A stretch of DNA of 64,000 nucleotides from a virus. Of this stretch, positions 3,657-44,317 are shown in pieces (the stretch's first letter is position 1; each line of letters opens with the position of its first letter). Location: positions 1 to 64,000 of the IMG/VR virus record IMGVR_UViG_3300045988_147821, one strand, 5' to 3'. Below the pieces are notes generated by a model. The model made no database searches and was not told the DNA's origin. It saw only the letters and a list, made by a program, of their open reading frames with translations. Both the position numbers and the translations under genes were made by a program.

Positions 3657-6600
3657 CTAAAACTTTATGATGAACTCTGTCATCAGATCGGCACCTGAAT
3701 CCCTGTTTACGGCACTTTGTTTCAGATACATGTTGTTTACAACGGATAGTGTATGGTTAATGACAACGGCATGCTTTTCGGGTACGCTGAACTGTTCTAC
3801 AATTCTTTTCCTTTCATCATCGTCTACGATTTTACTTGAATCCACATCCCCATTGGGGTTGCTTACGGAAACAAAGGAAGCAGGCCTTCGTGACGTGAAT
3901 CCCATGCAGGCAACAGGTTTCCCTATGATCTTGTTCCTCATTGCATCCGTCCATCCTATCAGATTGAGGTTTTTCACTACCTTATATGATCCACCTGAAA
4001 CCTTTTGTACGGCTATTATTCCGTCAAGGGTACAGTAATTGGATGATGAGTGCATGATAATTTCTCCACCTTCCGGATTATTTGCCAATCCAATCTTTTG
4101 TGAATTGTTAAGGTTTATCATGTAGATCAGGATTTTCGAGAAATCGCTGTTTGCCTGAACCCTCCATACGGATTTGAAATTCCCGTAACCCGATAGAAGG
4201 GTGTTCCATGGTGACTGTGACGACAGATCGGTCACATCCATGCTTCCTATCTGCCATCCCGAGTAATTGTTGATATACACATCCTTCTTGAATTCGGTAA
4301 GGGTAAGGAACAGGTAGAAGTTCGGTTTGTTGCCTGTGAAGTTGTGTGCAAATATATAATTGTTGTACACGTTTCCGCTTGCCAGTGTTCCCGTATTATA
4401 ATACTCTATGTAATCGTTGCAATCCGATGTGATGTATTGATTCAGGGTTGTCATGGTATTATCCGGTTGGAACGGATGACACAACTGCAATCCTAACAGG
4501 GCATTCGCTCCGCTTCCCGTAATTCCCGATACGGGTTTTGTGTATGCGAAATAAACACCGTAGATATTGTTGAAAAAATACTGATGGATGTACATCCCGG
4601 ATACAGTCTGTGTCTTTAGTATATTGTAGAATATGACCGACTGGAACATATCCCTGTTTCTGATTACGCTTTCCAGAAACGAATAATCCTTTCCATTATA
4701 CATGATGGCTTCCGCTATGAAAAGGGATGTATTGGTGAAATAATTGCATGGTGACATATAAAATTTGTATGATGATGTCAGAGCCTTTCCAAACCTGTAC
4801 ACATTACTTGAAGCGACGATGGGGCTATTGCTATCAGTGTCGGCATACATCATATTTTGGAAAACACCATAGGTAACATAAAATCTACCAAACATATCCT
4901 TGTCACGTTCCGCTATGAAATAATATTCGTAGGCAAGCGTATAATTGCCACGACTTGTAGCGGTTGTGGTAAAAAAGTTTTGGTACATTACTCCTGCATG
5001 GTATGCAGGCCATGCAGTATGGTCGGTGTCACCTTGCATGGTAATAGTGTCATTATGTGTTACAAAATAAAAATAGGACGGATTGATATGGTAATATGTA
5101 AAAAATCCAAAAGTGCTGGTAAAGGAATATGATGTATTGTCACTATAAGAAACGGCTGTATATATGAAGGTGGTCAGATTCCATGAACACATCATGTTCA
5201 CACTATTCCCTGCCACTATCACCTGCGGACGAGTTATTACGGAACCTATCGGATTATAATAAAGGGTGAATATGTTTGGATCAAAAGCAAGCTGTGCAGA
5301 CAATCCACATAGAACGTAAGACCATCTGGAAGAACTTCCCGAACCGAATTTTGATATCATCAGATAGGCGAAAATAAGGCATGGAGTAGGATTGTAGGCG
5401 GCTGATGCCTGTGTTCCGAAGGGAGCAGGCCCGATCGCACATATATTTCGCCTGTATATGTCCTGGACGGGGTAAACGGATGTACTCTCACTCAAAGATG
5501 AAAGACCAGTATTCCAGATGCTGCTGGTTTTAAACCCCCTCTCCTCCACCCAGGGTGTTCCGTCACCGATGCGGTCTACGGAGAGGGTGACAGCGTATGT
5601 ACCGCCGGAGGGGATGCTTGTAGGTAAGGTGAAGCTGCCTGTCGAATCGAACCATCCCATGGTCGCATAATTGTAATTGAATTTCCATGTTACGGTCGAT
5701 CCTTGCTTCAATCGTTTCGCATTGTAGATGGCCGAACCCGAAGCGTCTGTTGTAAGATTTATGGTTCCTATTGACGCACCGTTCTCGTCCGTACCCGTTA
5801 TCTGAACGGCAACGCCCGCAGGGGCTGTCGCGTTCTGTGCCGTGTCACGGAATGTCATTTTCACAAACATACCCTGTCTGGCAAGCGTTATTTCCTGATA
5901 ACGTGATGTCCACAATCCGACAGCACCCTTGGAAGCGGACAGATAACCCGACTTGGAAACAGACCATGACACGTTTCCGGGCAGCATCTTGCCCCAGCAC
6001 TCACCGTTGTCCGCCAATGAACCTGTGGTCTGTGTCTGGTATCCCATGGAGTATGTGACAACTCCTGTCGCACCCGAAAGGATACCGCTGTTGAAACCGT
6101 CAATGCATTTCAAATGGTTGTACGGGTATGTTCCACCGTTAGCATTTATCGATCCGGGATTGATGTTCCATGTATAAGCTGCCGTGTCGGATGTGGTAGG
6201 ATTGTAACCCCATACGCCCGTATTGTTGTTTTCGGTGAACGGTGATACGGAACCCTTTCTTATGTATGTCCCTACCGTGTTGTTTGTCAGGTCAAGATCC
6301 ATCCATCCCGTGTTCTGTCCGCTGCCGGAAGGGGAATTGGTAAGGACGAACACATATCTTCCTCCCAGTGTCCACCATCCCGGAATAGAGCACTGTCCGA
6401 AATTACCCATATTGACAATGCTGTTCGCTTCCGAAGCGTTCAGGGCGAATCCCTGCGTCTTGTAACATACGGTATGGACGATTGCGATATAGCCGCCTGT
6501 CGTAAGGTTCGCCTTTATCCAGTTCACCCATGTGGCCGTGTCACGTGTTTCATGATAGGTGACTGAACCGTCCGACACCTTCACCCTTAACGTACAGATA

Positions 6601-32608: not shown

Positions 32609-34123
32609 TTATGCCAAACCTTCTTTACCGATATTAACGATACGAACAACTTTGGCAGGTTGGTATAATACAGGAGTACCGTAGTTCAAGATAGCAAATC
32701 TACGAGATGGAGATGTGATAGCGAAATCCATCTTCATAGTATCTGCGAACTGCAAGTATTCGTTGATTTCAGAGTTGTTGTAGCAAATCAATGCTGACTT
32801 GGTTCCGGCAATGATACGGTTACGGTCACGAACCTTGGTTGCGGCAGCACCGTCATATCCGGCAGCCAATTGAGATACTGAAACCTCAAAAATCGGGAAG
32901 TATTTGGTGTTGGCATCAATAACAGCGTTCTTTTCGGTACGATATACAACGAAACAAGTAGCTGCGTATGCACCGCCTACTCCGGCTGCGAACTGCAAAT
33001 CAACTGATTGCTGTGCTGTAACTGCGATAGCTGCATCAGACATAGCAACAGGAGCAGATTCACCGTAACGGTTCTTAGCTGTAACGATGTAACGGTAGTT
33101 ACCTGCATGGTTGGTGAAACGAGTTTTCGTATCACTGTTCTGTGCAGCAGCGTCAGCAGTCTTAGTAGGAGCAACAGGGGCTTTTGCAGAAGTAGCACGA
33201 TCGCCCAAACGTTTCGGCTTACGTTCATCGAAGAAACGGTCATTTTTAATATTCACACGACCGAACTGTGTAACAATGTCGTTTACGCTCTGACCCATTG
33301 TAGCACCCACAACAGAGTTAGGATAACCAACAAGAACACGTTTTGATTCGTGGAACTGTTTAACATAGTCGTTGAACACGATCGGATTAGAGATGATACG
33401 ATCAAATTCACCGTTATATACGTTAACGATTACATTGGCTGCATCCTCAACCAATTTGTCATTCAATACCGAACCGTCAGCATCAACAACAGCAGGGTCA
33501 TTGAAATAAGCATCCAAAACGTTTTCAGAAGTCATACCTTCAATTGTACCACCTTCTTTTGTTACAACACCGATCATGTGTTGGCGGAAGATGCCGTCAA
33601 ACTGTTCGGGAACACAAGAAGAATCGGCATCAACCAATCTGCGGTCAAGCATTGTTTGCAACAACAAAGTCTTGTTTTCAACTTCACGAGCGTACATCTT
33701 TACGCCACCAGCCAATTTAACAAGCATTGCAGGATGAGTAACCTGACCTGTAACACCCATGAACTTAGCAACGATTGAACGTCTGATGTATTGAGAATCG
33801 GTTTCTTCGGGGGTTTCACCTTCTGCATTGAAGATACCTACTTCCTCACCATATTTTGACAATTGGTTGTATTCGTGAACGGTGTTGTCGATTTTGTCTT
33901 TCGGCATTTCGTTCAGATAAACCAACTGATCCAAACGGTTAGTCAACACTTTCAGGACTGCATCCAAAGATTCAACTTTCAGACCACCACCTGTGTTAAC
34001 TTCGTTGTTGTACTGCATACCTGTTTTCAATCCGGCTTCCATAGCCTTCAAGATTTCGGCAGAGTTTTCGTTTCCTACTTGGAAACCGTCAAATGAACCA
34101 CTATAATTGTATAAATCTTCCAT
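32609..34123 (-). CDS. major capsid protein (504 aa)
   Basis: Follows the protease and an acidic scaffold-like gene, and is followed by the strongest terminator in the module. Size is typical of HK97-fold MCPs. The track start 34129 is a TTG; the first ATG is at 34123. Confidence 0.7.
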   Translation of the reverse strand: MEDLYNYSGSFDGFQVGNENSAEILKAMEAGLKTGMQYNNEVNTGGGLKVESLDAVLKVLTNRLDQLVYLNEMPKDKIDNTVHEYNQLSKYGEEVGIFNAEGETPEETDSQYIRRSIVAKFMGVTGQVTHPAMLVKLAGGVKMYAREVENKTLLLQTMLDRRLVDADSSCVPEQFDGIFRQHMIGVVTKEGGTIEGMTSENVLDAYFNDPAVVDADGSVLNDKLVEDAANVIVNVYNGEFDRIISNPIVFNDYVKQFHESKRVLVGYPNSVVGATMGQSVNDIVTQFGRVNIKNDRFFDERKPKRLGDRATSAKAPVAPTKTADAAAQNSDTKTRFTNHAGNYRYIVTAKNRYGESAPVAMSDAAIAVTAQQSVDLQFAAGVGGAYAATCFVVYRTEKNAVIDANTKYFPIFEVSVSQLAAGYDGAAATKVRDRNRIIAGTKSALICYNNSEINEYLQFADTMKMDFAITSPSRRFAILNYGTPVLYQPAKVVRIVNIGKEGLA

Positions 34124-34167
34124 ATTCAATGTATTTGTATTTTGTATCTAACTGTTAGCTTGCGCCA

Positions 34168-34839
34168 TTATTTGCACAAAACAAAACCTTTTGATTTAGC
34201 GTAGTTGTACAAGTTCTTTCCTACTGTGTTTGCATAGGAATCAAGCATGTATGTTTTGTAATCATCTTCGATTGACTTCTGAATGTTTTCATCAGCCTTT
34301 TCGTAAAGATTTTGCAACAGACTCTTGCAGAACTCACGCTGTCCTGTAACACTTACTTCCAACTTACCGTTTTTTTCATTCATTTCAGTGTCAATGGATT
34401 TTTCGATAGCAGACAAACCCATATCACCCTTAAACCCCGGAGCGGTGTTTTTTGCCATTGCATCAAATCTTTCATTGATTGACTTGTTCAGTTCAGCAAA
34501 ACCTTCTTTCATGCCTGCAACGATAGAAGCAGAAAGGCTTTCTCTGAAAGATTTGAGAACATCAGCGTCAAGTCCTTTTTCAACCTTGCCTTCTGAATCC
34601 TTATCTTCCTTGTAGTCCTTTTCATCTTCCTTCACTTTCTTTTCAGCATCAACAGCAGCCTTTTCCTCCTTGTCGATCTTTTCTTCCTGCTTAGTTTCCG
34701 ATTCGTTATCCCCGGCTTTTGCAGATTTTTCGATACGGATATTTCCGGCTTCGATTTGTTCAGCGATATATTCATCACTGAAAACAGCTTGAAGTGACTT
34801 GAACACTTCGTTGTCTTTGTATTCTTCTAAGTTTATCAT
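34168..34839 (-). CDS. scaffolding protein candidate (223 aa)
   Basis: Highly charged helical region (EEKIDKEEKAAVDAEKKVKEDEKDYKEDKD). Lies between the protease and the MCP. Confidence 0.6.
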   Translation of the reverse strand: MINLEEYKDNEVFKSLQAVFSDEYIAEQIEAGNIRIEKSAKAGDNESETKQEEKIDKEEKAAVDAEKKVKEDEKDYKEDKDSEGKVEKGLDADVLKSFRESLSASIVAGMKEGFAELNKSINERFDAMAKNTAPGFKGDMGLSAIEKSIDTEMNEKNGKLEVSVTGQREFCKSLLQNLYEKADENIQKSIEDDYKTYMLDSYANTVGKNLYNYAKSKGFVLCK

Positions 34840-34870: not shown

Positions 34871-35650
34871 TTATTCTGTTTTTCCGCTTACCATCTTCAT
34901 GTAATCCATAAGAACGGATTTATTTACATCCCCATTTTTGACCGCACAAACAAGTCTGTCAAAATCATCCTTGGAGAACTCCTTCTTATTGACAATGGAC
35001 AATTCAAGGCTCTTGTTTACAATAATAACATTTTTACCGCAATCCACTTTCAATAAAGGCAGATTATCCTCATAAACAAAGTCACCATTAGGAATATAAA
35101 AATCCTGTTTCTGCATACCCTTAACAATATCGGCATACGTATTACCGTTTACTGGATTCATTGTAAGGGCCACATTGGTAATCAGTGTTTTTGTTATGTG
35201 TTTAGGATTATCCTTATCTCTTTCCAACGCCTTTCCTTCAATGGAGAATCCTGGGGTACGCTTTGGTTCAGACTGTTCCATTTCAAGTGCTGTATCGTAG
35301 AATGCTCTTGCTTCGGAAGATTTGCTCCACAACTTACATTTCAAATAGAACTTATTTTTCTCAACCTTTGCTTCCAACGGAACTCCTATAAAGAAGCGAC
35401 TTTTGTTTATTGGGGAACGTGTAGGAAGATGATCTAAATTAATCAATCCACGCTTCTTGAACACGTCAAGAACAAAGCCGTTCGGCTCCATAGAATCACC
35501 TTCAAAGTCCTCTGAATTGTCAGAAGCAAGACCTTCAAATATCATATTCTGATATCTGCGATCATCACCTCTTTCATAATCCAACGGATTGAATTTTGAT
35601 TTATGAATGATGGCTTCCAGTGTGAAATTTAATCTGTTATCGTCAAACAC
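34871..35650 (-). CDS. prohead maturation protease (259 aa; alternative ATG start at 35545)
   Basis: GLASDNSEDFEGDSMEPNGF...LINLDH......IG......GFSIEGK resembles HK97-type/S78-like protease blocks. The listed start 35650 is a GTG right after an in-frame stop. Confidence 0.6.
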   Translation of the reverse strand: MFDDNRLNFTLEAIIHKSKFNPLDYERGDDRRYQNMIFEGLASDNSEDFEGDSMEPNGFVLDVFKKRGLINLDHLPTRSPINKSRFFIGVPLEAKVEKNKFYLKCKLWSKSSEARAFYDTALEMEQSEPKRTPGFSIEGKALERDKDNPKHITKTLITNVALTMNPVNGNTYADIVKGMQKQDFYIPNGDFVYEDNLPLLKVDCGKNVIIVNKSLELSIVNKKEFSKDDFDRLVCAVKNGDVNKSVLMDYMKMVSGKTE

Positions 35651-35724
35651 GTCTTATTATATTTAATCTTAACTTACTAACACAAAGATGAATATTTTTC
35701 TTTGGTTAAACAAAAACTTCAATC

Positions 35725-35761
35725 AAAAAGTGTCATGGAGCACATTTACGCGCCATGGCAC
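35725..35761 (-). terminator. rho-independent terminator after the Nudix gene
   Basis: Minus strand reads GTGCCATGG cgcgtaaatgtgct CCATGACAC TTTTTGATT, starting 9 nt after stop 35770. Confidence 0.65.
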
Positions 35762-35769
35762 CCGTTGTT

Positions 35770-37809
35770 TTAATGTAATTGTAATCGGTATATAGACTGT
35801 TTTGTCTTGACAAGAAAATCATCAATCAATGACAGTTCACCAAAGTAATCTTCATCCCCGTCCAACGATTTACGGAATTTGGTTGTTCTCTCAAACAACA
35901 GTTTGATGAACTTCAACGGATCAGATTCTTCGATTTCTTCCGATTCAACCGTATTGGCATCAAATCGCCCGAACAATGCCTGTCCTGATTCGGCAAGAGT
36001 ATCCTTAAAGTCATTCATCAAGTCACCCACTTCATCAAGATACACATGTTTAGAATTATCTTCTTCTGTCCAATGAAGATTGTCCTTACGGGTAATCATA
36101 CCCTGTAAGAAATTGATATAGGAGAGAAAATCGGCTTTCTTTGTCTTTTCAGATTTCTCTATATCATCATTTTCCTTTTTGACATCGTTTTCAACGGACT
36201 TATTTATTTCTTCGTTCCTTCTCAAACCATTTACATAAATACAGTTATGGTTAAACTTCCATTCCTGTTCACCGTTATCAGGAGTGATTACCTTGACTGA
36301 AAAATCAGCGCATCTCCCGGACACTTTCTGTATCATGCCCAACATGTCAAAGAACTTTTCCGCACTTTCGGAATTTACCCCCGAATAACTAAAAGAACCT
36401 TGTCCATATACATCTTCTATCGGCTTTTCATCAACCTCCACATATTTCTCCGAATACTGTCTTTTCTTGAATGAAATAGCCTTCTCCACCTTATCGTCAC
36501 CGTTTTCAACACCTGAACCCTGTGGACCAACAACTTCTTCTTTAAGACTTTCAGGAGCGATTTCCCCAGCATCGGCAGTAGTCATGGCTTTTTCTTCAAC
36601 ACCTGTTTCGTTTTCCGACTTCTCAACCTTTCCTTCTTTCTTCTCTCCCCATGATTCAGGTAACTTGTCTGTAAGACCAAGTTCCTTTGCACGTTTTCTT
36701 ATCCATGCCTTTACTTCTGATTTGGGCATGTCGGATGCTCCTACAAGACGTATGGCATCATGTAAATCCTGTTCGTTTCTGATAGGATATTTACCGTTCG
36801 GCATCGCTTCACCTTTCTTTGCAAGATCCTTTCTTTCTGAATGAGAAAAATAAGTTTTGTTCTGCGCTTTCAAAACTTCATCAGGATGCTCCTTACAATA
36901 GGTGTCAAATACTGATTTGCTGATATATCCTTCCGAATATGCTTTCAGTATCCTTGTTATACCGCATGAATCGTCAAGACCCATAATTCTTTTCAGATTC
37001 TCTTTCATATCGAAAATAAAGTTGTAATTATCAATTTTATCCAGTTTTATCCATGCAGAACCAACTTCCTCTTCGCTGTCAAGTAGGATGCTTGCACCTT
37101 CCTTTTCATCAAGAGTGACCATATAATAGTGAATGTCCGCATCGTTGTTTTTATAGGTGGCTACCTCACGTAAACGGTCTGCGGCCACCTCTATTCCCGT
37201 TTCCTCCCACAATTCTCTACGTGCAGCTACTTTAAATTCTTCTCCTTCATCTACATGACCTCCGGGAATACACCAATCATCCGTTGCCTCTCCCATATCG
37301 GTACAACGGTTAAGGATAAGTATTTTTATCCCATCGGGAGTGAACTTCTGAACAATAACATCCGCATATTTCACGGCACCCTTGCTTTTTAGAAAATCAA
37401 AGTACACAGATTTTGTTATCTGTTTCTTTTGATATAGGTATCTCATTTTTTCCGCCTTGTCAATCTCCTTGATTGCAATAGAAAGATCCTTGTCGGATGA
37501 AATGGATTTCATCACGCTCTCATTCTTTATAACAAGGCCACGTAAATCGGATACTTTTATCCCCTGTTCCTTGATAAAATCATCATATCGGTTCATTGCA
37601 TCCTTCATATCTTCATCCATTTCACCTTTCTCCATGAACATGGACTTCAATGCGGACATTTCAGAGAAAGACTTGGCAAGTTCATTTCCCTTGTCTTTGT
37701 ATTCATAAGACTTACGGACAGCACTTCTATATTTTCTAAGTTTATCCGAAGCAGTTTCTAACCCAAGTAAACTTCTTATATTCATAATCAAATTTTTAAA
37801 TAATCTCAT
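35770..37809 (-). CDS. 679-aa head-module protein with internal Nudix hydrolase domain
   Basis: Perfect Nudix box G-x5-E-x7-REUxEExGU at aa 184-206 (GHVDEGEEFKVAARRELWEETGI). Alternative start at ATG 37785. Also carries GEAMPNGKYPIRNEQDLHDAIRLVG....VKAWIRKRAKELGL, a motif I recall from phage head/scaffold-associated proteins. Confidence 0.8.
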   Translation of the reverse strand: MRLFKNLIMNIRSLLGLETASDKLRKYRSAVRKSYEYKDKGNELAKSFSEMSALKSMFMEKGEMDEDMKDAMNRYDDFIKEQGIKVSDLRGLVIKNESVMKSISSDKDLSIAIKEIDKAEKMRYLYQKKQITKSVYFDFLKSKGAVKYADVIVQKFTPDGIKILILNRCTDMGEATDDWCIPGGHVDEGEEFKVAARRELWEETGIEVAADRLREVATYKNNDADIHYYMVTLDEKEGASILLDSEEEVGSAWIKLDKIDNYNFIFDMKENLKRIMGLDDSCGITRILKAYSEGYISKSVFDTYCKEHPDEVLKAQNKTYFSHSERKDLAKKGEAMPNGKYPIRNEQDLHDAIRLVGASDMPKSEVKAWIRKRAKELGLTDKLPESWGEKKEGKVEKSENETGVEEKAMTTADAGEIAPESLKEEVVGPQGSGVENGDDKVEKAISFKKRQYSEKYVEVDEKPIEDVYGQGSFSYSGVNSESAEKFFDMLGMIQKVSGRCADFSVKVITPDNGEQEWKFNHNCIYVNGLRRNEEINKSVENDVKKENDDIEKSEKTKKADFLSYINFLQGMITRKDNLHWTEEDNSKHVYLDEVGDLMNDFKDTLAESGQALFGRFDANTVESEEIEESDPLKFIKLLFERTTKFRKSLDGDEDYFGELSLIDDFLVKTKQSIYRLQLH
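37192..37260 (-). other. Nudix box (aa 184-206)
   Basis: Direct match to GX5EX7REUXEEXGU. Confidence 0.85.
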
Positions 37810-38209
37810 CGCATACTAAAATACCGTCAGCAAAATAACTATGCGCCCGATTTACTTCAAGAGAATAGCATATCTTATTGATAGTTTCCATCTTTTCAAT
37901 ATCCACTATCTTCTTTATCCCTTTCAAAGTTAATAAACTATCTCCCTTTTTCAAATCCTTGACATATCTCCATCCATCTTCCGACATAACAAGCTGCACT
38001 CCTTGAAAACGATAACCTACAATATCATCATCACATCTTATATTATAGGAAACATCATATTTGGTTGCCAATTCCTGAACAAGTTTCTTGGCTATATGAT
38101 AGCTTTCCTTATAGGACATGACAGACATACCAACAACAATATCTTTGATGTATTTGTCACCCTCTATTGTCCTTATCGCTGTAAAACCCGAATTGAATCC
38201 CATAATCAT
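37796..38209 (-). CDS. free-standing degenerate Hint-fold (PT-HINT/mini-intein-like) protein (137 aa)
   Basis: GFNSGFTAIRTIEGDKYIKDIVVGMSV (block A-like, no Cys1) ... EDGWRYVKDLKKGDSLL ... ICYSLEVNRAHSYFADGILVCDEII* (block F/G-like, CD in place of HN). ATGA overlap upstream and a 14-nt overlap with the Nudix ORF. Confidence 0.6.
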   Translation of the reverse strand: MIMGFNSGFTAIRTIEGDKYIKDIVVGMSVMSYKESYHIAKKLVQELATKYDVSYNIRCDDDIVGYRFQGVQLVMSEDGWRYVKDLKKGDSLLTLKGIKKIVDIEKMETINKICYSLEVNRAHSYFADGILVCDEII

Positions 38210-38847: not shown

Positions 38848-40890
38848 TTAAACATCAAATTCCTTAGTTCCAACCTTGATATGAATTTTGGATTTTCGTC
38901 TTACCTTTCTTTTCTCTTCTTTCATAGGAGAAGTGACGAACATCCTTAATTTTTCATCCCATTCATCAAACATCGGGTTGTAGTATTGGAGCGAGCAACG
39001 GCAATTACCTGATACACATACCTTATTGTTTCTACGAATAATTAACGTATGATTTCTTTCCAATTCAACATCATATATATATCCCTCATATTCTATGACA
39101 TTTTCCTGTATTCTTCTTTTAAGATTGTACTTATTTTTTAATACATTTATCCATAAAATATCATTCTTAGATATATATACCTTTCCCCTTTTTACATCAT
39201 TATAATACCGTTTACCTGTATTTTTAAAAGAAGGTCTTTCTCCGGTTTTTAAAATCAATTCACCCAAATCATCAGCCAATCTTTTACTAGTTGTTATATA
39301 ATGAACTTGTGGCTTAAATTGATACCCTTTCCACACTTTTCCTTTATGAATAGTACCATCTCCAAGTCTAAATGCTTCTAAAAATAAAGAAATGTTTTCC
39401 GAAGTTGTTTGCTTTATAAAATCAGGAACATATCTTACATCTTGCTTTCCTAAATTATAGAAAAACAAAAGTAATTCAGGTTTACTGCAAGCAGAAATAG
39501 TGATTCTATCTTTATCATTTCTAGCCTTTTCCCCAAACAAAGAAGAAGAACATAACCACATCTTTTCCTTAACCTCTTGCTTTAATTGAATCAATTGGAT
39601 TAATTTTCTATCTTCAACCAATGTTCCATCTGAAAGCCAATAGCCCAAAAATTCACAAAACAACTTAAAATCATACTTTATTCCATCAAACTCAATATAC
39701 TCTAAATCAGTTCCTTTCCATTTAGGTATAGTAACTAAAAAGGTAAAATCTTTAGGAAGATCGCTTTCCTTTACTAACAATATATTTCTACCCCTTCCTT
39801 TATTATACTTATTTGTACCAACATGTACATGATTAGGGGTTGTACAAAGGTTATAATCTCTACTAACTCTTTCTATCATAATACCTTTATATTGTTGGTT
39901 TATATACTTAATTGCTTGCACATATTCACCTTCACCAGAACTAGGATTAACTGACAAAAATAATTCATCACCCTTTAAGTCTTTAAAAAACATAAACCCT
40001 TTGTCAGTAAGAACCTCTGTTTTATCATCATAACAGAAAGGGTGCGTAGCCTGGACAGTAGGAAGCCATTCTCTCTGCCTTCTCCCTACGTTGGTCCCAT
40101 TGGCAAGCAATTCTTTCAGTTTGAAAATTTTGGGCCTTGAACCAAGTCCATTTGTAGTAAAGAAACGTATGCAATATGAGCATGCACCATTGAACACTGT
40201 CTTATATACAAGGGCATCCTCACCATGCAAGTCAAGAATACTAAGTGCAGTTCCTTCCTCAAAGATATTCTGCATCTCTGTTTCCATGATACGAAGCCAG
40301 TCCTTTTCCCATATCTGCGTTCTATGACCTATGTCACTTACAATCTGTTTTATAGTCTGTTTTTTATTGAATACAGCACCATTCATAACAGCTTCCTGAA
40401 TCACCCTGCGTTCAGCTTCTGCCTGTGCATTGTCATATTGGGATGCAACCTCTCCAAGAATAGCTTCTGCCACATCCTTTTTCATCTTATCTCCAAGACC
40501 TTTGAGATAGGTATATGTTTTTGTAGCCGCCACACCAAGCCGCATTTGATCTGTAAGCGTCAATTGGGAAACCTGTTCGGATGATACGAATTTATAAAAG
40601 TCAGCATATCCTAATGATGCAGTCTGTCTTGGTTCAAGAACTCCGGCAAGTCTACCGAAAATCATGGCCTGCTGATATGGTGGGATTCGCTTCATCTCCT
40701 TTTCAAAATCAAAGTTGAACTCTTTAAGGAGTTTCTTGTCTGATTCCGAAATAAACTGTTTCCCCAACACTTTTACGATAAGACGAACAAGACGATAGTC
40801 TATTATTCTGAATATCCTCTTGATTACTCCGTCCTGTTCATAAAAAGGTGGATAAAACCTCAAATCCTTATCTATCCTGTTTTCTGCCAT
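38848..40890 (-). CDS. MuF / SPP1 gp7-type head morphogenesis protein interrupted by an intein (680 aa precursor; 336-aa spliced product)
   Basis: Joining the exteins restores ..GACSYCIRFF...WLPTVQATHPF|CRCSLQYYNP, the MuF H-P-x-C-R-C signature. Position directly after the portal. Confidence 0.8.
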   Translation of the reverse strand: MAENRIDKDLRFYPPFYEQDGVIKRIFRIIDYRLVRLIVKVLGKQFISESDKKLLKEFNFDFEKEMKRIPPYQQAMIFGRLAGVLEPRQTASLGYADFYKFVSSEQVSQLTLTDQMRLGVAATKTYTYLKGLGDKMKKDVAEAILGEVASQYDNAQAEAERRVIQEAVMNGAVFNKKQTIKQIVSDIGHRTQIWEKDWLRIMETEMQNIFEEGTALSILDLHGEDALVYKTVFNGACSYCIRFFTTNGLGSRPKIFKLKELLANGTNVGRRQREWLPTVQATHPFCYDDKTEVLTDKGFMFFKDLKGDELFLSVNPSSGEGEYVQAIKYINQQYKGIMIERVSRDYNLCTTPNHVHVGTNKYNKGRGRNILLVKESDLPKDFTFLVTIPKWKGTDLEYIEFDGIKYDFKLFCEFLGYWLSDGTLVEDRKLIQLIQLKQEVKEKMWLCSSSLFGEKARNDKDRITISACSKPELLLFFYNLGKQDVRYVPDFIKQTTSENISLFLEAFRLGDGTIHKGKVWKGYQFKPQVHYITTSKRLADDLGELILKTGERPSFKNTGKRYYNDVKRGKVYISKNDILWINVLKNKYNLKRRIQENVIEYEGYIYDVELERNHTLIIRRNNKVCVSGNCRCSLQYYNPMFDEWDEKLRMFVTSPMKEEKRKVRRKSKIHIKVGTKEFDV
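39004..40035 (-). mobile_element. LAGLIDADG-type intein (344 aa)
   Basis: Cys1 (TGT, 40033-40035) in CYDDKTEVLTDKGF. Block B is TTPNH. Two LAGLIDADG motifs (FLGYWLSDGT, LFLEAFRLGDGT). Block F is IYDVELERNHTLI. Terminal ..VSGN (Asn 39004-39006) followed by +1 Cys (39001-39003). Confidence 0.85.
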
Positions 40891-41080
40891 AATCTATCAG
40901 TTCTTCCGTTATCTGCTTTATCATGTTAGAAATTTCATCCTTATAGATGTCGTTGGCCTCACTCTCATATACATCCTGAACCTTTGGGAAAGGAGGTTGC
41001 TCCTTTGTCCGGGATTTATAGAATATCTTCCCATCAGGAGCAATCTTTTTAATGAATTGAAGTCCTTTTTGCATTATCAT
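40868..41080 (-). CDS. hypothetical protein (70 aa)
   Basis: ATG ORF between portal and MuF, overlapping both (4 nt and 23 nt). Confidence 0.5.
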   Translation of the reverse strand: MIMQKGLQFIKKIAPDGKIFYKSRTKEQPPFPKVQDVYESEANDIYKDEISNMIKQITEELIDYGRKQDR

Positions 41081-42810
41081 TCACCTCCAAACATCTTGTT
41101 GATAACTTCCGTGGCCCTGTCCATGATGGGATTGTCACCATACATGGATTTGTATTTTGCAAATGGATCTTCTTCCTCTGCTGCCACATTGGATGATGGT
41201 TGCTCTTCCTCATTCTCCACACCTTCCACTTCACCTCCGTTCATCTGACCTCCCATGGCAGCAGCGTTATCCTTGTTGATTTTATAATTCATCCATACGG
41301 AATTGAGGATTGTGTCCTTTTCAGGATTGAACGGTCTGCCTGAATATGCTTCAAAAGCATCCTCCAATGAGATCATTCCTGCTTCAAGTTTCTTCTTGTC
41401 GATTTCCACTTTCAATGCTTCATCTTCAAGATCAACGCCTGTAAAAGCAAACTCGAATGATTCATCAAGTTCCGATACAAGATATCTTGTTATGATTTCT
41501 TGTAGGAAGGATAACATGGGTTTAAGACCTTTCTCACGTGAATGCTTTAATCTCTGTCGTTGGCCGTCCTGTCCGAACATCTGTGCGGATTCCTTGAACT
41601 GGAATCCTAGTTCTGAGGGGTCTATACGATAGACAGAACATATCAGCACAATAAGGAATTGGTTCCATAAATTGTACTCCATATCCTTGTTGTTTTTGGT
41701 CAAATCAATCCATTCAACCTGTGATTGTGCCAAAACAGGGATTCTTCCTGCGTTTTGAGGTCCTGCCATCATTTGATACCACATTTGCCTAAACTCGTTC
41801 AAAGTGGTTTGGGAAACATTTTCACCCTTGATATTCAACAGACCTTTGGGGAATACGCCATTCTTGAATGAATTACCATTGGATTGTAAGGACCATAAGA
41901 ACCATGTCACAATCTCATTGAGTGTTTCAAGTTCCGAAACCCCGTATCCGTTACGGTAGACATCGGTTGACTTGTTACGCACCCCGAAACCGAGTTCCCA
42001 CGGGTAATAGACGATTGATTCGCCTGTGACGGGATTTTTGAGAATCTGATTATCCCACACCATACAGTAGCGGGGCAAATATCCCTTAAACCGATATTTC
42101 TCGAACTCCTGCCTGTTCCGTGGGTCAACCGCACCAAGGAAACGTACAAGTGACGCGTCCACCGCCTTGAATCTGTCAAGTTCCCACATCCTGTTTCTTG
42201 TGGTTTCAAACGCAAGCTGGTCAAGTGTCAGCGAATCAAACGAAATCTTTCTTATGAAGTCGGGAAGGGTATCATAGTTATCCCATTTGTCGGTGTTGCC
42301 ACCTCGTTCCAGGAACTCCACGATTTTTTCTACCTTCTTCTTGTCTTTCGATGATAAAGACAAATCTCCCGGATCAAACAAACCTCTTTTCTTTCTGATG
42401 GTATAACCTTCCTTCTGCTCGTCATCGGAGAAGTGCAGGAAGTTCTGTATCTGCTCTATACGTGTGTTTACGATGGCCCTTACAAGATAAATTCCACCCA
42501 TTCTACGTAACGTACTGAATGGAAGAATACCTCTTTGAGCAAGATAATCACGTCCACTATCGTTCCATACCTGCGGATCAAAGAAAACGGATTGAAGTTT
42601 TCCATTATCCGAAGTCTTTGAACCAAGATACAGATTTGCTTTCATCACATCTTCCACATCCCTAGACATCATAGAAGATTGTAATTTTGATTGCAAAAGC
42701 ATGGGAACAGTCTTGCTTAATCTGTCCAGTTCATTGAAATCAAGGGAAGCCAAAGACTTCAACAAGTCAGGCTTCCCATTTTTATATGTATTTTTCCGTT
42801 TTCTACTCAT
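41077..42810 (-). CDS. portal protein (577 aa)
   Basis: Size and position immediately upstream of MuF. The track start 42843 is a TTG that would overlap the upstream gene; the first ATG is at 42810. Confidence 0.6.
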   Translation of the reverse strand: MSRKRKNTYKNGKPDLLKSLASLDFNELDRLSKTVPMLLQSKLQSSMMSRDVEDVMKANLYLGSKTSDNGKLQSVFFDPQVWNDSGRDYLAQRGILPFSTLRRMGGIYLVRAIVNTRIEQIQNFLHFSDDEQKEGYTIRKKRGLFDPGDLSLSSKDKKKVEKIVEFLERGGNTDKWDNYDTLPDFIRKISFDSLTLDQLAFETTRNRMWELDRFKAVDASLVRFLGAVDPRNRQEFEKYRFKGYLPRYCMVWDNQILKNPVTGESIVYYPWELGFGVRNKSTDVYRNGYGVSELETLNEIVTWFLWSLQSNGNSFKNGVFPKGLLNIKGENVSQTTLNEFRQMWYQMMAGPQNAGRIPVLAQSQVEWIDLTKNNKDMEYNLWNQFLIVLICSVYRIDPSELGFQFKESAQMFGQDGQRQRLKHSREKGLKPMLSFLQEIITRYLVSELDESFEFAFTGVDLEDEALKVEIDKKKLEAGMISLEDAFEAYSGRPFNPEKDTILNSVWMNYKINKDNAAAMGGQMNGGEVEGVENEEEQPSSNVAAEEEDPFAKYKSMYGDNPIMDRATEVINKMFGGE

Positions 42811-42823
42811 TTCTGCAAAAATA

Positions 42824-44317
42824 TTATGCCGAAGCTCCAGCAAGTTGATTAAGTGCCACAGTAGCTTCTTTTCCGCCCTCTGTTGCCGTTACCACCGCCG
42901 AACCTGTACGGACTGCGCCTGTATTTGCGGCTGCAACTACCGAATAATCCGTAGAGCCTTTAGTAAATCCCGTGCCGGAAACAACTGTCGTATAAGTTAC
43001 AACAATAGGTGCACCTGAATCCTTTCCGTTCACTTTCTTCTGCTTATTTGAAGTAACGCCAAACACCTTGGTTTCTCCAGCTGCGGCAAATTGAAGTGAA
43101 GTGGGGTCAACTGTAAGTTCATATTCATAAGTTACAGTGGCTGCGGACTGGGTTAAAGTTATTTCGGCAGTCTTTCCACCTTCACTTGCAGTAATGGTAA
43201 CTTTTCCTGTCCGCTGTGATTCGGTTGTATTTTCAGCCGCAACAACTGTTGTATCATTACTACCTTTCGTAAATCCTGCTCCTGAAACAGTAGTCGTGTA
43301 ACCTACATTAACAGGAGAACCTGAATTTTTACCATTTACCTTCTTCTGCTTTTCGGAAACCACATTAAATGACTTGGATTCACCCTTTGCAACGAAAGCA
43401 ATACTTGTGGGCGTAGGAAGCAAAGAATATTCGTATGTAATGACGGATGCTGCCTGTGTAAGATCCACTGTCACACTCTTACCACCTTCATCCATAGTAA
43501 TGGTTGCAGTTCCCTTTCTCTGCGTATTACCTGGATTTTCAGTCACCTTAATGTTGAATCCATCGGAAATGGCTTCATGGGAGAATCCTGCTCCGGCAAG
43601 TTCTATATCCGTACCTATCTTTGTAGGAGCCCCTGACGGTTTTCCATTTACCACAGTCTGTTTGGTTGAAGTAACGGTCACTTTCTTTGTTTCTCCCGTA
43701 TTCACAAATAAAAGTGTCTTTGGATCTACCACCAAATTGTAAGTATAGGTTACAGTGGATGCAGCTTGCGTAAGGTCAATAGTAATCTTCTTATTGCTCT
43801 CATGCTGTGTTACGGTCAAAACCCCGTTTCTTATGGAATTGGTAGGATTTTCAGGAATTGTCACCGTTCCACCTTCACTTACTGCATAAGGAAGTTGTGT
43901 TTCAAAGTCAACTTCCAACGGTGTTTGTACACCTGTCGGCTTTCCGTTTACATAAAGTTGCTTATAGGAAGTAACAACAGCCTCTATGCTGTCACCTTCC
44001 TTGGGAAACGCCATTGTCTTATCTTGCGGAATAAGAAAATAACGCATCTCTTCAACTATATCAACAAGAATCTGTTCCTTTCCTCCCAACTCTTCTGGAT
44101 AAGCTATAAGTTGCAGTGCATGGTTTGTGGCCCATTGTTTGAATACTCCGATATTATAGGTCAGTCCGGCACGTATCACAACACCCATACCCTCATAATA
44201 TTCCCTGTCACCTATGACATTTTCAGTCACAAAAACATTCATTTGGCTGTCTATGCCATCAGTAATGACCGTTAAACGGTGACTTTCATCTCTATTTATA
44301 AACAACAGCCGTAACAT
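42824..44317 (-). CDS. protein with four tandem BACON/Ig-like repeats (497 aa)
   Basis: ~95-aa repeats ending ..TVDLTQ / ..ITLTQ / ..VALNQ, with an L-x-(V/P)-x-P-x-(T/S)-(L/I)-x-F...G(E/T)-(T/S)-K-x-(F/V)-x-V-x-S...(E/A)N-(P/T)...R-(K/T)-G-x-(A/V)-x-(I/V)-T pattern typical of BACON domains. The N-terminal ~90 aa is shared with the two upstream paralogs. Confidence 0.65.
   Translation of the reverse strand: MLRLLFINRDESHRLTVITDGIDSQMNVFVTENVIGDREYYEGMGVVIRAGLTYNIGVFKQWATNHALQLIAYPEELGGKEQILVDIVEEMRYFLIPQDKTMAFPKEGDSIEAVVTSYKQLYVNGKPTGVQTPLEVDFETQLPYAVSEGGTVTIPENPTNSIRNGVLTVTQHESNKKITIDLTQAASTVTYTYNLVVDPKTLLFVNTGETKKVTVTSTKQTVVNGKPSGAPTKIGTDIELAGAGFSHEAISDGFNIKVTENPGNTQRKGTATITMDEGGKSVTVDLTQAASVITYEYSLLPTPTSIAFVAKGESKSFNVVSEKQKKVNGKNSGSPVNVGYTTTVSGAGFTKGSNDTTVVAAENTTESQRTGKVTITASEGGKTAEITLTQSAATVTYEYELTVDPTSLQFAAAGETKVFGVTSNKQKKVNGKDSGAPIVVTYTTVVSGTGFTKGSTDYSVVAAANTGAVRTGSAVVTATEGGKEATVALNQLAGASA
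42827..43975 (-). repeat. four tandem ~95-aa BACON-like repeats (protein level)
   Basis: See the parent CDS. Repeat units are clearly alignable by eye. Confidence 0.6.

What the first reader, a model, noticed from the sequence alone, without database searches (positions are those of the whole stretch)
35770..37809. Nudix hydrolase domain embedded in a large head-assembly-operon protein
Residues 184-206 (GHVDEGEEFKVAARRELWEETGI) match GX5EX7REUXEEXGU at every defined position (nt 37192-37260). The domain (aa ~146-275) is flanked by a ~140-aa helical, charged N-terminal region and a ~400-aa C-terminal region. The C-terminal region contains GEAMPNGKYPIRNEQDLHDAIRLVGASDMPKSEVKAWIRKRAKELGL, a motif I recall from head/scaffold-associated phage proteins (family name not recalled), followed by acidic low-complexity sequence. 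The gene lies between the Hint ORFs and the protease, and is followed by its own terminator. Phage Nudix enzymes are normally found among early or metabolic genes, so placement in the capsid operon suggests a packaged enzyme.
Basis: partly seen in the sequence, partly recalled or inferred. Interest (0 to 1): 0.7.

Follow-up and report, generated by a model that had tools for sequence, protein, structure and literature searches.

The report
Nudix–Dps polyprotein in phage head operon
A gut-phage head-assembly gene encodes one long protein that strings together a nucleotide-cleaving Nudix enzyme, a widespread uncharacterised 70-residue module also found on capsid proteases, and an iron-binding Dps-like domain, separated by what look like capsid-protease cut sites, so these enzymes are probably loaded into the virus head.

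Summary
ORF 35770-37809(-) carries a complete Nudix box at aa 184-206 (nt 37192-37260; Pfam NUDIX E=1e-17). It lies between a Hint ORF and the prohead protease.

- a three-helix N-terminal region;
- a MutT-like Nudix domain;
- an acidic disordered linker;
- a small domain;
- a C-terminal Dps-like four-helix bundle that keeps all ferroxidase-site residues.

More than 1,300 homologues keep this architecture. In 80 IMG/VR loci the gene always sits in the head module (MCP downstream in 71/74, portal upstream in 55/55).

The module is very common (4,676 clusters at 50% identity). It is fused to prohead proteases, a portal, Nudix, Dps/ferritin, rubrerythrin and 2H-phosphoesterase domains. It has no Pfam family and no PDB fold match.

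A hydrophobic-E-K-small motif is about six times denser in these proteins than in all other ORFs of the same loci. It marks the domain junctions, the scaffold, the protease C-terminal boundary and, in a related form, the MCP N-terminus.

Best reading: a prohead-loaded cargo polyprotein processed by the prohead protease. Packaging is inferred, not shown.

The parts
35770..37809 (-). Whole ORF (679 aa). The probable real start is Met9 at nt 37785, giving 671 aa. The stop codon is at 35770-35772.
37411..37785 (-). N-terminal helical region, aa 9-133. It has three long helices (20-60, 66-104, 107-127). It ends at the invariant I-x-K133|S134, and a conserved Phi-x-K-S site lies at K101. Proposed scaffold-like or targeting part.
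   Evidence: phrog_1185 covers aa 37-237.
36982..37374 (-). Nudix hydrolase domain, aa 146-276, of the small MutT/NUDX1-like type.
   Evidence: Pfam E=1.1e-17. PDB profile best hit AtNUDX1 at 1.5e-9. Foldseek. AF2 strands and helices.
37192..37260 (-). Nudix box GHVDEGEEFKVAARRELWEETGI, aa 184-206. All defining residues are invariant in the family.
36646..36867 (-). ~70-aa three-helix module, aa 315-388 (FSxxERxxLAxxGxAMPxGxYPIxNxxDLxxAIxxxG...IxKRAxxLGL..LPxxW). It is preceded by the conserved VLK314|A and followed by E406-K407|A. It is uncharacterised and head-associated.
36481..36645 (-). Acidic disordered linker, aa 389-443. It holds VEK|S, EEK407|A and VEK443|A.
36199..36480 (-). Small low-confidence alpha/beta domain, aa 444-537, bounded by K443|A and INK537|S. 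No family match.
35773..36153 (-). Dps-like four-helix bundle, aa 553-679 (DUF5856). It begins right after the invariant IEK552|S with a Lys-rich tail. Ferroxidase-type residues H579, H588, D592, D603 and E607 are invariant.
35724..35767 (-). Imperfect hairpin (-16.7 kcal/mol) followed by a U-rich tract, in the 119-nt spacer before the protease gene. Possible attenuating terminator.
   Evidence: not listed by the scan
37796..38209 (-). Free-standing mini-Hint ORF (137 aa), directly upstream. It is conserved next to the gene in 52 of 55 loci.
34871..35650 (-). Prohead (head maturation) protease, the presumed processing enzyme. It has a conserved DI-x-K|[GS] after the catalytic domain.
34168..34839 (-). 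Scaffold-like acidic protein with three [IV]EK[SG] motifs.
32609..34129 (-). Major capsid protein (SU10_MCP / phrog_752). It has a conserved N-terminal ILK|AMEAG.
38848..40890 (-). 680-aa protein in the position of the Mu F / SPP1 gp7-type head protein. A 344-aa LAGLIDADG intein interrupts it inside HPF|CRC.
   Evidence: The Mu F family itself was not detected.
41077..42843 (-). Portal protein.

Best explanation
The gene encodes a cargo polyprotein of the phage head.

**Shown**
- The protein is a conserved chain of domains: a helical N-terminal region, a catalytically intact MutT-like Nudix hydrolase, a ~70-aa three-helix module, an acidic disordered linker, a small domain, and a Dps-like four-helix bundle with a complete ferroxidase-type site.
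- The gene is an invariant member of the portal-to-capsid gene block in a large clade of Bacteroidota (mostly human-gut) phages.

**Inferred**
1. The protein is co-assembled into the prohead. The scaffold-like N-terminal helices and/or the module would do this, because the same module is fused to prohead proteases and to a portal C-terminus in other phages.
2. Inside the prohead, the neighbouring protease cuts it at or next to hydrophobic-x-Lys-(Ser/Ala/Gly/Thr) sites that lie at the domain junctions. The same type of site is found in the scaffold, at the protease's own C-terminal boundary and near the MCP N-terminus.
3. The folded pieces stay with the DNA and enter the cell with it. These would be the Nudix domain (~17 kDa) and the Dps-like domain (~15 kDa, with a Lys-rich tail).

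**Most likely roles**
- The Dps-like piece would bind Fe(II) and limit Fenton damage to the genome of a phage of strict anaerobes.
- The Nudix piece would hydrolyse a nucleoside-diphosphate-X compound at the start of infection. Candidates are oxidised or other (d)NTPs, RNA 5' ends or caps, or a nucleotide alarm signal. The substrate cannot be predicted from sequence.
For: **Domain calls**
- Nudix.
- Dps-like: a profile of the C-terminal domain plus crAss 'DpsA' hits S. aureus Dps 2d5k at E=6e-4, and 10 of the next 11 PDB hits are Dps-family chains. H579/H588/D592/D603/E607 align to Listeria Dps H31/H43/D47/D58/E62. AF2 predicts four helices at aa 549-678.

**Family and synteny**
- 1,310 homologues; full-length ones at 44-47% identity keep all parts.
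- In 80 IMG/VR loci the MCP is downstream in 71/74, the protease in 71/74 and the portal upstream in 55/55.
- A Nudix gene sits in the same slot in Chryseobacterium phage MA9V-3 and Bacteroides phage DAC19.
- A PHROG annotated as portal includes a Nudix segment (phrog_15528).

**Cut-site evidence**
- [ILVM]EK[SAGT] occurs 8 times in ~14,900 aa of window proteins; 7 of the 8 are in the scaffold and this protein.
- Composition-matched shuffles give P=0.0008 for this protein and P=0.0026 for the scaffold.
- In 11 divergent loci the density is 6.9 per 1000 aa in the polyproteins against 1.1 per 1000 in all other ORFs, scaffolds included.
- Permuted motifs of the same composition occur 3-10 times against 53.
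- Invariant lysines sit in otherwise variable linkers and at every domain junction, including the junctions of extra inserted domains. Four of the sites lie in segments predicted to be disordered.
- Related sites are conserved at the MCP N-terminus (ILK|AMEAG) and after the protease domain. The same pattern is seen in Bacillus phage SP-10, a phage with the same MCP family.

**Module association**
- 4,676 clusters at 50% identity.
- Among 87 partner proteins: NUDIX 14, DUF5856 9, Peptidase_S78 5 (plus XkdF and DUF2213, one each), Ferritin 3, Rubrerythrin 1, 2H phosphoesterase 1.
- Large module-bearing proteins match head maturation protease and portal PHROGs.
- In an unrelated phage (L095) a genuine PF00210 Dps domain and three modules are fused to an S78-like protease in a 1984-aa ORF lying one 231-aa ORF upstream of the major head protein. 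There, Dps would enter the prohead together with the protease.
Against: - No virion proteomics or N-terminal sequencing exists for any member, so neither packaging nor cleavage has been observed.
- I found no experimentally mapped cleavage site for this protease lineage in the held literature.
- Some conserved Phi-x-K-S sites lie inside predicted helices and may not be cut.
- The Dps assignment is marginal at sequence level: DUF5856 scores below the Pfam cut-off and the best PDB hit is E=6e-4.
- In crAss-like phages the related DpsA is a separate small gene outside the capsid block. A cytoplasmic role for phage Dps has been proposed (PMC8008677).
- A Nudix enzyme sealed in a capsid has no substrate there, so its role depends on ejection, which is unproven.
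Confidence: 0.55

Rival explanations
1. A late-expressed cytoplasmic 'housekeeping' fusion. The MutT-like Nudix domain cleans the nucleotide pool and the Dps-like domain lowers free iron and oxidative stress in the infected anaerobic host while genomes are replicated and packaged. Placement in the head operon only sets timing and dose. The protein is never in the particle.
For: - Benler et al. proposed exactly this role for phage DPS-like genes in Bacteroides phages (PMC8008677).
- crAss-like DpsA homologues are stand-alone genes next to HU and transcription-factor genes, not in the capsid block.
- The Nudix domain is closest to (d)NTP pyrophosphohydrolases.
Against: This reading does not explain:
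- the strictly conserved position between portal/Hint and protease in all informative loci;
- the concentration of scaffold-type Phi-E-K-small motifs at the domain junctions;
- the scaffold-like helical N-terminus;
- the shared module that is fused to prohead proteases and a portal;
- the Dps-protease fusion in L095.
Confidence: 0.2
2. An auxiliary scaffold or core protein. The helical N-terminus and the module work only in head assembly. After cleavage all pieces, enzymes included, are expelled or degraded like the scaffold, so nothing is delivered to the next host.
For: - The protein shares motif density with the scaffold.
- It has long helices and acidic disordered linkers.
- The module occurs on protease-scaffold fusions placed just upstream of capsid genes.
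Against: - The Nudix box and the ferroxidase-type residues are invariant over 44-47% identity. That implies selection on enzyme function, not only on assembly.
- Folded 15-17 kDa domains are unlikely to leave through capsid pores (general knowledge of T4 and HK97 maturation).
- Enzymes of several kinds are recurrently joined to the module.
Confidence: 0.15
3. A disintegrated polymorphic-toxin-like effector of the MuF type. The ancestral arrangement would be [MuF-type head protein]-[pretoxin Hint]-[C-terminal effector], now split into three ORFs. The Nudix/Dps protein would be the effector, delivered through association with the MuF-position protein at the portal.
For: - The gene order is MuF-position protein, then a free-standing Hint ORF that matches Pfam PT-HINT at E=7e-8, then the polyprotein. 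This order is kept in 52/55 loci.
- In L095 a neighbouring head-module ORF ends in an ADP-ribosyltransferase toxin domain.
Against: - The three are separate ORFs with variable spacing of 4-35 nt, so there is no conserved frameshift.
- The Hint ORF has Asn in place of the first-residue Cys in the window and in L004.
- Pfam does not recognise the upstream protein as Mu F, even with the intein removed.
- Nudix and Dps are not toxin-like domains.
Confidence: 0.05

Closest known systems
T4 internal proteins and Alt (capsid-targeted, gp21-processed, injected proteins)
   Same: These proteins and enzymes are encoded with or near head genes. They are carried into the prohead on the scaffold core, trimmed by the prohead protease at short consensus sites, kept with the DNA and injected (reviews PMC3012670 and PMC9026906, listed). 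The window protein has the head-operon position, a removable-looking N-terminal region and a short recurring site shared with the scaffold.
   Different: - The T4 signal is a ~10-aa N-terminal capsid targeting sequence cut after Glu (L/I-x-E).
- Here the candidate sites are Phi-x-Lys-small.
- The protein is a multi-domain chain with about 6-8 sites.
- The cargo is Nudix plus Dps-like, not an ADP-ribosyltransferase or an anti-restriction protein.
- Nothing has been shown experimentally.
phiKZ / SPN3US ejection proteins processed by the prohead protease
   Same: Many head-internal proteins are cut by one prohead protease at a short motif and ejected into the cell (PMC5694885, PMC10052503).
   Different: Those are jumbo-phage proteins with an S/A/G-x-E motif, and they include virion RNA polymerase subunits. 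There is no Nudix or Dps cargo and no shared module.
Dps (DNA-protection-during-starvation mini-ferritins), and the DPS-like genes already noted in gut Bacteroides phages
   Same: The domain has a four-helix bundle, the HW...H-x3-D...D-x3-E ferroxidase-site pattern, and a Lys-rich N-terminal tail after the predicted cut. Benler et al. reported DPS-like genes in 'Gratiaviridae' and 36 other gut phage genomes (PMC8008677).
   Different: - This domain is shorter (127 aa) and falls below the Pfam Ferritin and DUF5856 cut-offs.
- It is the C-terminal domain of a head-module polyprotein rather than a free gene.
- Dodecamer formation and iron chemistry are untested.
MutT / NUDX1 / NudG-type small Nudix (d)NTP pyrophosphohydrolases
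   Same: It has a complete Nudix box, a ~130-aa single domain, and best sequence and structure matches to this group.
   Different: - No NCBIfam equivalog cut-off is reached (e.g. MutT 36.8 bits against 148).
- Identity is about 20-25%.
- The domain is embedded in a 679-aa head protein.
- The substrate is unknown.
Encapsulin cargo loading (ferritin-like, rubrerythrin-like and peroxidase cargo inside an HK97-fold shell)
   Same: An HK97-fold shell is paired with iron and oxidative-stress enzymes that carry a short, portable loading element. Here the portable module is found on Dps/ferritin, rubrerythrin and DUF5856 domains. The comparison itself rests on general knowledge of encapsulins.
   Different: - Encapsulin targeting peptides are ~10-aa C-terminal tags, not a folded 70-aa module.
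- The shell here is a DNA-filled virus head.
- Binding of the module to the capsid interior is not shown.
HK97-type prohead protease processing (gp4 cuts gp5 after Lys103, before Ser104)
   Same: The candidate sites have Lys followed by a small residue, and they occur in the capsid protein N-terminus, in the scaffold-equivalent and in the protease itself. The HK97 facts come from established knowledge and were not retrieved here.
   Different: The window protease matches phrog_1028, not Pfam Peptidase_S78. Whether the cut falls after Lys or after Glu is unknown.

Membership tests
Nudix hydrolase superfamily | Nudix box G-x5-E-x7-R-E-U-x-E-E-x-G-U | tested here: met
   aa 184-206 match exactly. 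All box residues are invariant in 14 homologues.
Nudix hydrolase superfamily | Profile match above the curated cut-off, and the alpha/beta/alpha Nudix fold | tested here: met
   PF00293 scores 64.7 bits against 21.1. Foldseek gives probability 1.0 to Ap4A hydrolase, MutT, NrtR and NudC structures.
Nudix hydrolase superfamily | Mg/Mn-dependent hydrolysis of a nucleoside-diphosphate-X substrate | not testable with these tools
   Needs a recombinant domain (about aa 134-289) and a substrate panel.
MutT 8-oxo-dGTP diphosphatase (equivalog) | NCBIfam equivalog score above cut-off | tested here: not met
   NF008044 scores 36.8 bits against 148, and TIGR00586 scores 33.6 against 97.9. Closest, but not a member.
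ADP-ribose pyrophosphatase / NudC / Ap4A hydrolase subfamilies | Marker residues downstream of the box, recalled from the Nudix literature: Pro at +15/16, the SQPWPFPxS array, Tyr at +16-18 | tested here: not met
   The sequence after I206 is EVAADRLREVATYKNNDADIHYY. It has no Pro at +15/16 and no SQPWPFPxS, and positions +16 to +18 are N, D, A (sequence). The markers themselves come from memory.
Dps / ferritin-like superfamily | Four-helix bundle | tested here: met
   AF2 predicts helices 549-577, 582-613, 631-649 and 653-678, with pLDDT mostly 68-90.
Dps / ferritin-like superfamily | Inter-subunit ferroxidase-site ligands (two His, Asp, Asp/Glu) | tested here: met
   H579, H588, D592, D603 and E607 are invariant, also in crAss DpsA. 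They align to the corresponding residues of S. aureus and Listeria Dps.
Dps / ferritin-like superfamily | Significant profile match to the curated family | tested here: inconclusive
   PF00210 is not hit. DUF5856 scores 21-27 bits against a cut-off of 34.6. The PDB profile search gives Dps 2d5k at E=6e-4, and 10 of the next 11 hits are Dps-family chains at E 0.16-0.75.
Dps / ferritin-like superfamily | Dodecameric cage, iron oxidation and storage, DNA binding | not testable with these tools
   Needs the expressed domain (aa 553-679), SEC-MALS or cryo-EM, and ferroxidase assays.
Prohead-loaded, protease-processed internal (cargo/ejection) proteins | Encoded in the head-assembly block, conserved there | tested here: met
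   MCP downstream in 71/74, protease in 71/74, portal upstream in 55/55. Same slot in MA9V-3 and DAC19.
Prohead-loaded, protease-processed internal (cargo/ejection) proteins | Carries the same protease recognition sites as the scaffold and capsid protein | tested here: inconclusive
   There is strong statistical and comparative enrichment of Phi-E-K-small at domain junctions. The real cleavage specificity of this protease is unknown.
Prohead-loaded, protease-processed internal (cargo/ejection) proteins | Physically present in proheads or virions, and ejected | not testable with these tools
   I found no proteomic data for any member.
MuF-type polymorphic toxins | Effector domain covalently fused C-terminal to a Mu F (PF04233) domain, optionally through PT-HINT | tested here: not met
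   The ORFs are separate. Mu F is not detected even after in-silico intein removal. Only the PT-HINT-like ORF is present.
Encapsulin-type cargo | Short C-terminal targeting peptide that binds the shell interior | tested here: not met
   The portable element is a folded, internal ~70-aa module. The protein's C-terminus is the Dps-like helix ending in YRLQLH.

The most novel reading that the evidence does not exclude
The ~70-aa three-helix module would be a general cargo-loading domain of tailed-phage heads. On this reading, phages of many lineages use it, together with protease-cleavable linkers, to load enzymes into the prohead. The enzymes include Dps/ferritin, rubrerythrin, Nudix and 2H phosphoesterases. 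The capsid would then act as an encapsulin-like compartment that carries an antioxidant and nucleotide-hydrolase kit with the genome. That would be a direct functional bridge between virus heads and encapsulins. For gut phages of strict anaerobes, it would offer a way to survive oxygen exposure between hosts.
Probability: 0.3. Interest if true: 0.85.

Novelty: new variant of a known kind. Interest (0 to 1): 0.7.

Why it matters
- **Scale.** If the reading is right, a very abundant group of human-gut Bacteroidota phages carries a Nudix enzyme and a Dps-like iron protein inside the head. The group has more than 1,300 database homologues, in contigs that are often 100-110 kb long.
- **New cargo types.** This would add two enzyme classes to the short list of proteins known to be packaged and injected by phages.
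- **A function for a large orphan family.** The ~70-aa module occurs in 4,676 clusters at 50% identity. It has no Pfam family, its PHROG is labelled 'unknown', and it has no PDB fold match.
- **A testable cut-site rule.** Phi-x-Lys-small would be a candidate specificity for the prohead protease lineage that accompanies this MCP family. The pattern is also seen in the Spounavirinae phage SP-10.
- **Ecology.** It suggests how phages of strict anaerobes might shield their DNA from iron- and oxygen-driven damage outside the host.
- **Tractability.** Cultured relatives exist for experiments: Bacteroides phages DAC16-23 and SJC03, and Chryseobacterium phage MA9V-3.

Tried and rejected
- **Word-index protein search with the 117-aa module region** returned only 6 short hits. 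The full scan of representatives was needed instead.
- **Pfam at E<=10 on the isolated regions.** The module, the N-terminal region and the small domain gave nothing meaningful.
- **Foldseek against the PDB.** The whole model returned only Nudix hits. The high-confidence module model gave no hit better than E=3. A marginal sequence hit to an 'Adaptor protein' N-terminus (7z47, E=0.25) and a repetitive designed TIM barrel were dismissed as chance.
- **NCBIfam** could not assign a Nudix subfamily.
- **Mu F family membership of the 680-aa upstream protein** could not be confirmed, even after removing the intein. I therefore call it only 'MuF-position'.
- **The strict terminator scan** found nothing in the spacer. 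Only a relaxed fold shows the hairpin, and its z-score of -1.57 is not distinctive.
- **Literature searches** found nothing on DUF5856, on the motif strings, or on Nudix in virion proteomes. The only Nudix mention I opened (Atu_ph07) concerns metabolic genes.
- **Papers on SPO1-like, Twort-like and Felix O1 phages** held no mapped cleavage site for this protease lineage.
- **Ideas rejected:**
  - That the ORF is a mis-assembled or frameshifted fusion. The architecture is kept in hundreds of independent contigs.
  - That the Hint ORF and the polyprotein form one gene through a frameshift. The spacing is variable.
  - That the motif enrichment is an E/K composition effect. Shuffles and permuted motifs rule this out.
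Full report
**1. Observation**

- The ORF listing gives a 679-aa ORF at 35770..37809 on the minus strand.
- The string GHVDEGEEFKVAARRELWEETGI is at residues 184-206, nt 37192-37260. It is the only match to the Nudix-box pattern in the protein.
- Pfam NUDIX matches aa 162-262 at E=1.1e-17, 64.7 bits against a cut-off of 21.1. PHROGs 1198 and 1185 (nudix hydrolase) also match.
- The GEAMPNGKYPIRN... motif is at aa 333-379.
- The probable start is Met9 at nt 37785. Homologues begin MNIKK, N10 is invariant, and the identical database protein P0001 is 671 aa.
- The gene is in a minus-strand head block, in this order:
  - BACON-repeat protein (42824-44317);
  - portal (41077-42843);
  - a 70-aa ORF;
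  - a 680-aa protein with a LAGLIDADG intein (38848-40890);
  - a 207-aa ORF with no family match;
  - a 137-aa Hint ORF (PT-HINT E=7e-8);
  - the Nudix gene;
  - protease (phrog_1028, E=6e-32);
  - an acidic scaffold-like protein;
  - major capsid protein (SU10_MCP, phrog_752).
- The 119-nt spacer after the gene is the largest in the block. It holds an imperfect hairpin (-16.7 kcal/mol) followed by a U-rich tract. The strict terminator scan did not list it.

**2. Anatomy**

An AlphaFold model built on 14 homologues (mean pLDDT 68.5), read with the alignment, divides the protein as follows:

| Residues | Part |
|---|---|
| 20-127 | three long helices |
| 146-276 | Nudix fold |
| 283-376 | helical segment that includes the motif |
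| 390-472 | acidic disordered linker |
| ~480-520 | weakly predicted small domain |
| 549-678 | four-helix bundle |

*C-terminal bundle (Dps-like)*
- It matches DUF5856 weakly (E=5e-4 in the whole protein, 1e-5 when scanned alone).
- It matches phrog_858 and the 'putative DpsA protein' of crAss-like phages by tblastn.
- A profile of this domain plus two crAss DpsA sequences hits S. aureus Dps (2d5k) at E=6e-4. Ten of the next eleven PDB hits are Dps-family chains.
- The alignment places the invariant H579, H588, D592, D603 and E607 on the ferroxidase-site positions of Listeria Dps.
- The domain is therefore a short Dps-like mini-ferritin domain with an intact metal site.

*Nudix domain*
- It is closest to small (d)NTP pyrophosphohydrolases: AtNUDX1, a Bacteroides 'CTP pyrophosphohydrolase', and MutT.
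- No NCBIfam equivalog cut-off is reached, so the substrate is open.

**3. The family and its location**

- The word-index search found 1,310 homologues. The top 120 listed are almost all full length, at 44-47% identity to the window protein, and many come from 100-110 kb contigs. One is named 'NUDIX hydrolase [Herelleviridae sp.]'.
- All parts are conserved. Some members carry a second copy of the motif module or extra inserted domains.
- Gene order is kept in contigs fetched by exact protein.
- In 80 IMG/VR loci:
  - MCP downstream in 71 of 74 with enough sequence;
  - protease downstream in 71 of 74;
  - portal upstream in 55 of 55;
  - the small Hint ORF immediately upstream in 52 of 55.
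- More distant phages with the same MCP family have a shorter Nudix gene in the same slot:
  - Chryseobacterium phage MA9V-3 (235 aa, directly before a protease-scaffold fusion);
  - the cultured Bacteroides phages DAC19 and relatives (DAC19_206, 226 aa, N-terminal extension plus a Nudix-like domain).
- A PHROG annotated as portal protein contains a Nudix segment (phrog_15528).

**4. The motif module**

- tblastn against phage records finds it in:
  - 'capsid/head maturation protease' genes that lie just upstream of the capsid gene in Gordonia phages (GMA6 and ChisanaKitsune were inspected) and Alicyclobacillus MMB025;
  - genes with the same annotation in Microbacterium phage Cece and Gordonia phage DalanDe;
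  - the C-terminus of the Caudovirales GX15bay portal;
  - a stand-alone 102-aa protein of Bacteroides phage BS162P1.
- A profile of the module scanned over 1.84 billion representatives gives 4,676 clusters at E<=1e-3. The proteins range from 71 to 1,771 aa, and 38 of the 146 best carry two or three copies.
- Pfam partners among 87 of the best hits are NUDIX 14, DUF5856 9, Peptidase_S78 5 (plus XkdF-type and DUF2213, one each), DUF7211 4, ChaB 3, Ferritin 3, Rubrerythrin 1 and 2',5'-RNA-ligase/2H 1.
- Large carriers match head-maturation-protease and portal PHROGs. The module itself corresponds to phrog_6439, 'unknown function'.
- With a 61-sequence alignment AlphaFold gives a confident three-helix unit (pLDDT 91.4).
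- It has no structural neighbour in the PDB (best E=3). In BFVD it matches only uncharacterised viral proteins, one 'NUDIX hydrolase' and, weakly (E=0.75), one 'Prohead protease'.
- No Pfam family covers it.

*An independent case (L095)*
- In an unrelated viral contig, a 1,984-aa ORF contains, in order: module copies, an S78-like protease region, a genuine PF00210 Dps domain (E=1.4e-16), and three more modules.
- It lies one 231-aa ORF upstream of the major head protein.
- Because prohead proteases act inside proheads, that Dps domain would be carried into the prohead with the protease.

**5. Candidate protease sites**

- The tetrapeptide [ILVM]-E-K-[SAGT] occurs 8 times in 37 window proteins (~14,900 aa). 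Three are in the scaffold and four in the Nudix protein.
- Shuffles that keep composition give P=0.0026 for the scaffold and P=0.0008 for the Nudix protein.
- The same concentration is seen in divergent relatives and across 11 representative loci. There are 53 hits in 7,698 aa of polyprotein (6.9 per 1000), against 54 in 48,774 aa of all other ORFs, scaffolds included (1.1 per 1000).
- Permuted versions of the motif occur 3-10 times against 53.
- In the looser form hydrophobic-x-K-[SAGT], sites are conserved in all eight representative sequences at K101, K133, K141, K289, K314 and K552. The site at K537 is kept in six of the seven other representatives, and the one at K443 in four.
- E406-K407 is invariant.
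- These positions bracket the N-terminal helices, the Nudix domain, the module, the small domain and the Dps-like domain. Extra inserted domains in other members are bracketed in the same way.
- Four of the sites lie in the disordered segments.
- Related sites are conserved near the MCP N-terminus ([IVL]-[LQ]-K-A-M-[EQ]-A-G) and just after the protease catalytic domain (D-I-x-K-[GS]). This holds in the window, L004, L006 and MA9V-3; DAC19 keeps the MCP site, but its protease reads ICK-G at that boundary.
- Bacillus phage SP-10, which has the same MCP family, shows the pattern in its annotated MCP precursor, its scaffold (8 sites) and its protease.
- Cleavage next to Lys before a small residue has a precedent in HK97. 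That is established knowledge and was not retrieved here.
- I found no mapped site for this protease lineage in the papers available, so the sites remain predictions.

**6. Mechanism proposed**

*Shown*
- The domain composition.
- The conservation of the catalytic residues.
- The fixed head-module position.
- The statistical and comparative signal of the site motif.
- The recurrent fusion of the module to prohead proteases and to iron or nucleotide enzymes.

*Inferred*
- The protein is built into the prohead through its helical N-terminus and/or the module.
- The neighbouring protease cuts it at the junctions.
- The folded Nudix and Dps-like pieces stay with the DNA and are delivered at infection.

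*Speculative*
- After a cut at K552, the Dps-like piece would start with a Lys-rich tail (SEKTKK...). That recalls the DNA-binding tail of E. coli Dps (from memory).
- A role in limiting iron- and oxygen-driven DNA damage fits phages of strict anaerobes.
- The Nudix piece could clean (d)NTPs, act on RNA 5' ends or hydrolyse a nucleotide signal. Sequence cannot decide between these.

**7. Rivals**

- *A purely cytoplasmic late enzyme.* This fits the published idea for phage Dps and the stand-alone crAss DpsA genes. It does not explain the site motif, the module or the fixed position.
- *An auxiliary scaffold whose pieces are all expelled.* This is possible, but it fits poorly with strict conservation of both active sites.
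- *A split MuF-Hint-effector toxin arrangement.* The gene order and the PT-HINT match suggest it. However, the ORFs are separate, the Hint first-residue Cys is Asn here and in L004, and the Mu F family is not detected.

**8. Comparison and novelty**

- In kind, this resembles the prohead-loaded, protease-trimmed internal proteins of T4 and of phiKZ/SPN3US.
- It differs in the site type, in the polyprotein layout, in the cargo (Nudix plus Dps-like) and in the portable module.
- I found no paper describing a head-module Nudix, DUF5856, or the module.
- I rate it a new variant of a known kind.
- The broader possibility is that the module is a general cargo-loading domain that makes phage heads encapsulin-like carriers of antioxidant enzymes. 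The evidence does not exclude this, and it would be of high interest.

**9. Verdict**

- Confidence is about 0.55 that the protein is a prohead-loaded, protease-processed cargo polyprotein.
- The domain assignments themselves are much firmer than that.
- Interest: 0.7.

Noticed in passing
window 38848-40890 (-): The 680-aa head protein upstream carries a 344-aa LAGLIDADG intein (aa 286-629) inserted exactly inside an HPF|CRC motif. The intein is present in L006 and absent in L004. Pfam does not recognise the extein as Mu F even after in-silico splicing.
   Followed up: partly
window 41077-42843 (-) versus L013:1662-4733: A near-identical IMG/VR contig (100% identity over the Nudix gene) has a 1,023-aa portal ORF where the window has 588 aa. 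This is probably a portal intein that is present or absent among very close genomes. The L006 portal (1,009 aa) carries Pfam Intein_splicing plus LAGLIDADG.
   Followed up: partly
window 37796-38209 (-): A free-standing mini-Hint ORF (137 aa; PT-HINT E=7e-8; weak intein C-terminal block) lies immediately upstream of the polyprotein gene in 52 of 55 loci. The usual first-residue Cys is Asn here and in L004, and Cys in L006. Its role in a head module is unexplained.
   Followed up: partly
It has no counterpart in the divergent relatives, only in contigs that are 96-100% identical.
   Followed up: partly
window 42824-44317 (-): A 497-aa protein with repeated BACON / Ig-like domains lies directly upstream of the portal and overlaps it by 20 nt. 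It could be a glycan-binding capsid or virion surface protein. It also points to a Bacteroidota host.
   Followed up: no
window 3657-13190 (-): A single 3,177-aa ORF, presumably a tail or fibre component, occupies 9.5 kb of the window.
   Followed up: no
L095:3162-9116 and L095:181-1821: An unrelated viral contig has a 1,984-aa head polyprotein made of modules, an S78-like protease, a PF00210 Dps domain and three more modules. It lies one 231-aa ORF upstream of the major head protein. A nearby 546-aa ORF ends in an ADP-ribosyltransferase exotoxin domain.
   Followed up: partly
L094:7372-8052 (Bacteroides phage DAC19, DAC19_206): A cultured B. thetaiotaomicron phage has a 226-aa protein with an N-terminal extension and a Nudix-like domain in the same head-module slot. 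Its box is altered (GGHLEKSLSEERNVKKEIKEETGL: the first Glu is Leu and the Arg is Lys). It is a usable experimental system.
   Followed up: partly
L093 (Bacillus phage SP-10) 2027-4880: The C-terminal part of the protease repeats the MCP N-terminal sequence after a Lys (VSK|TMEAGYATTPETQSDGGALRRESVE versus NK|ALEAGYGTSPDTQSGGGAFRVESLE). This suggests the protease tail mimics the capsid protein's N-terminal arm.
   Followed up: no
window, whole: ARAGORN found no tRNA genes in the 64 kb. Nearly all long ORFs between 100 and 48,300 are on the minus strand, and the cumulative GC skew falls steadily.
   Followed up: no
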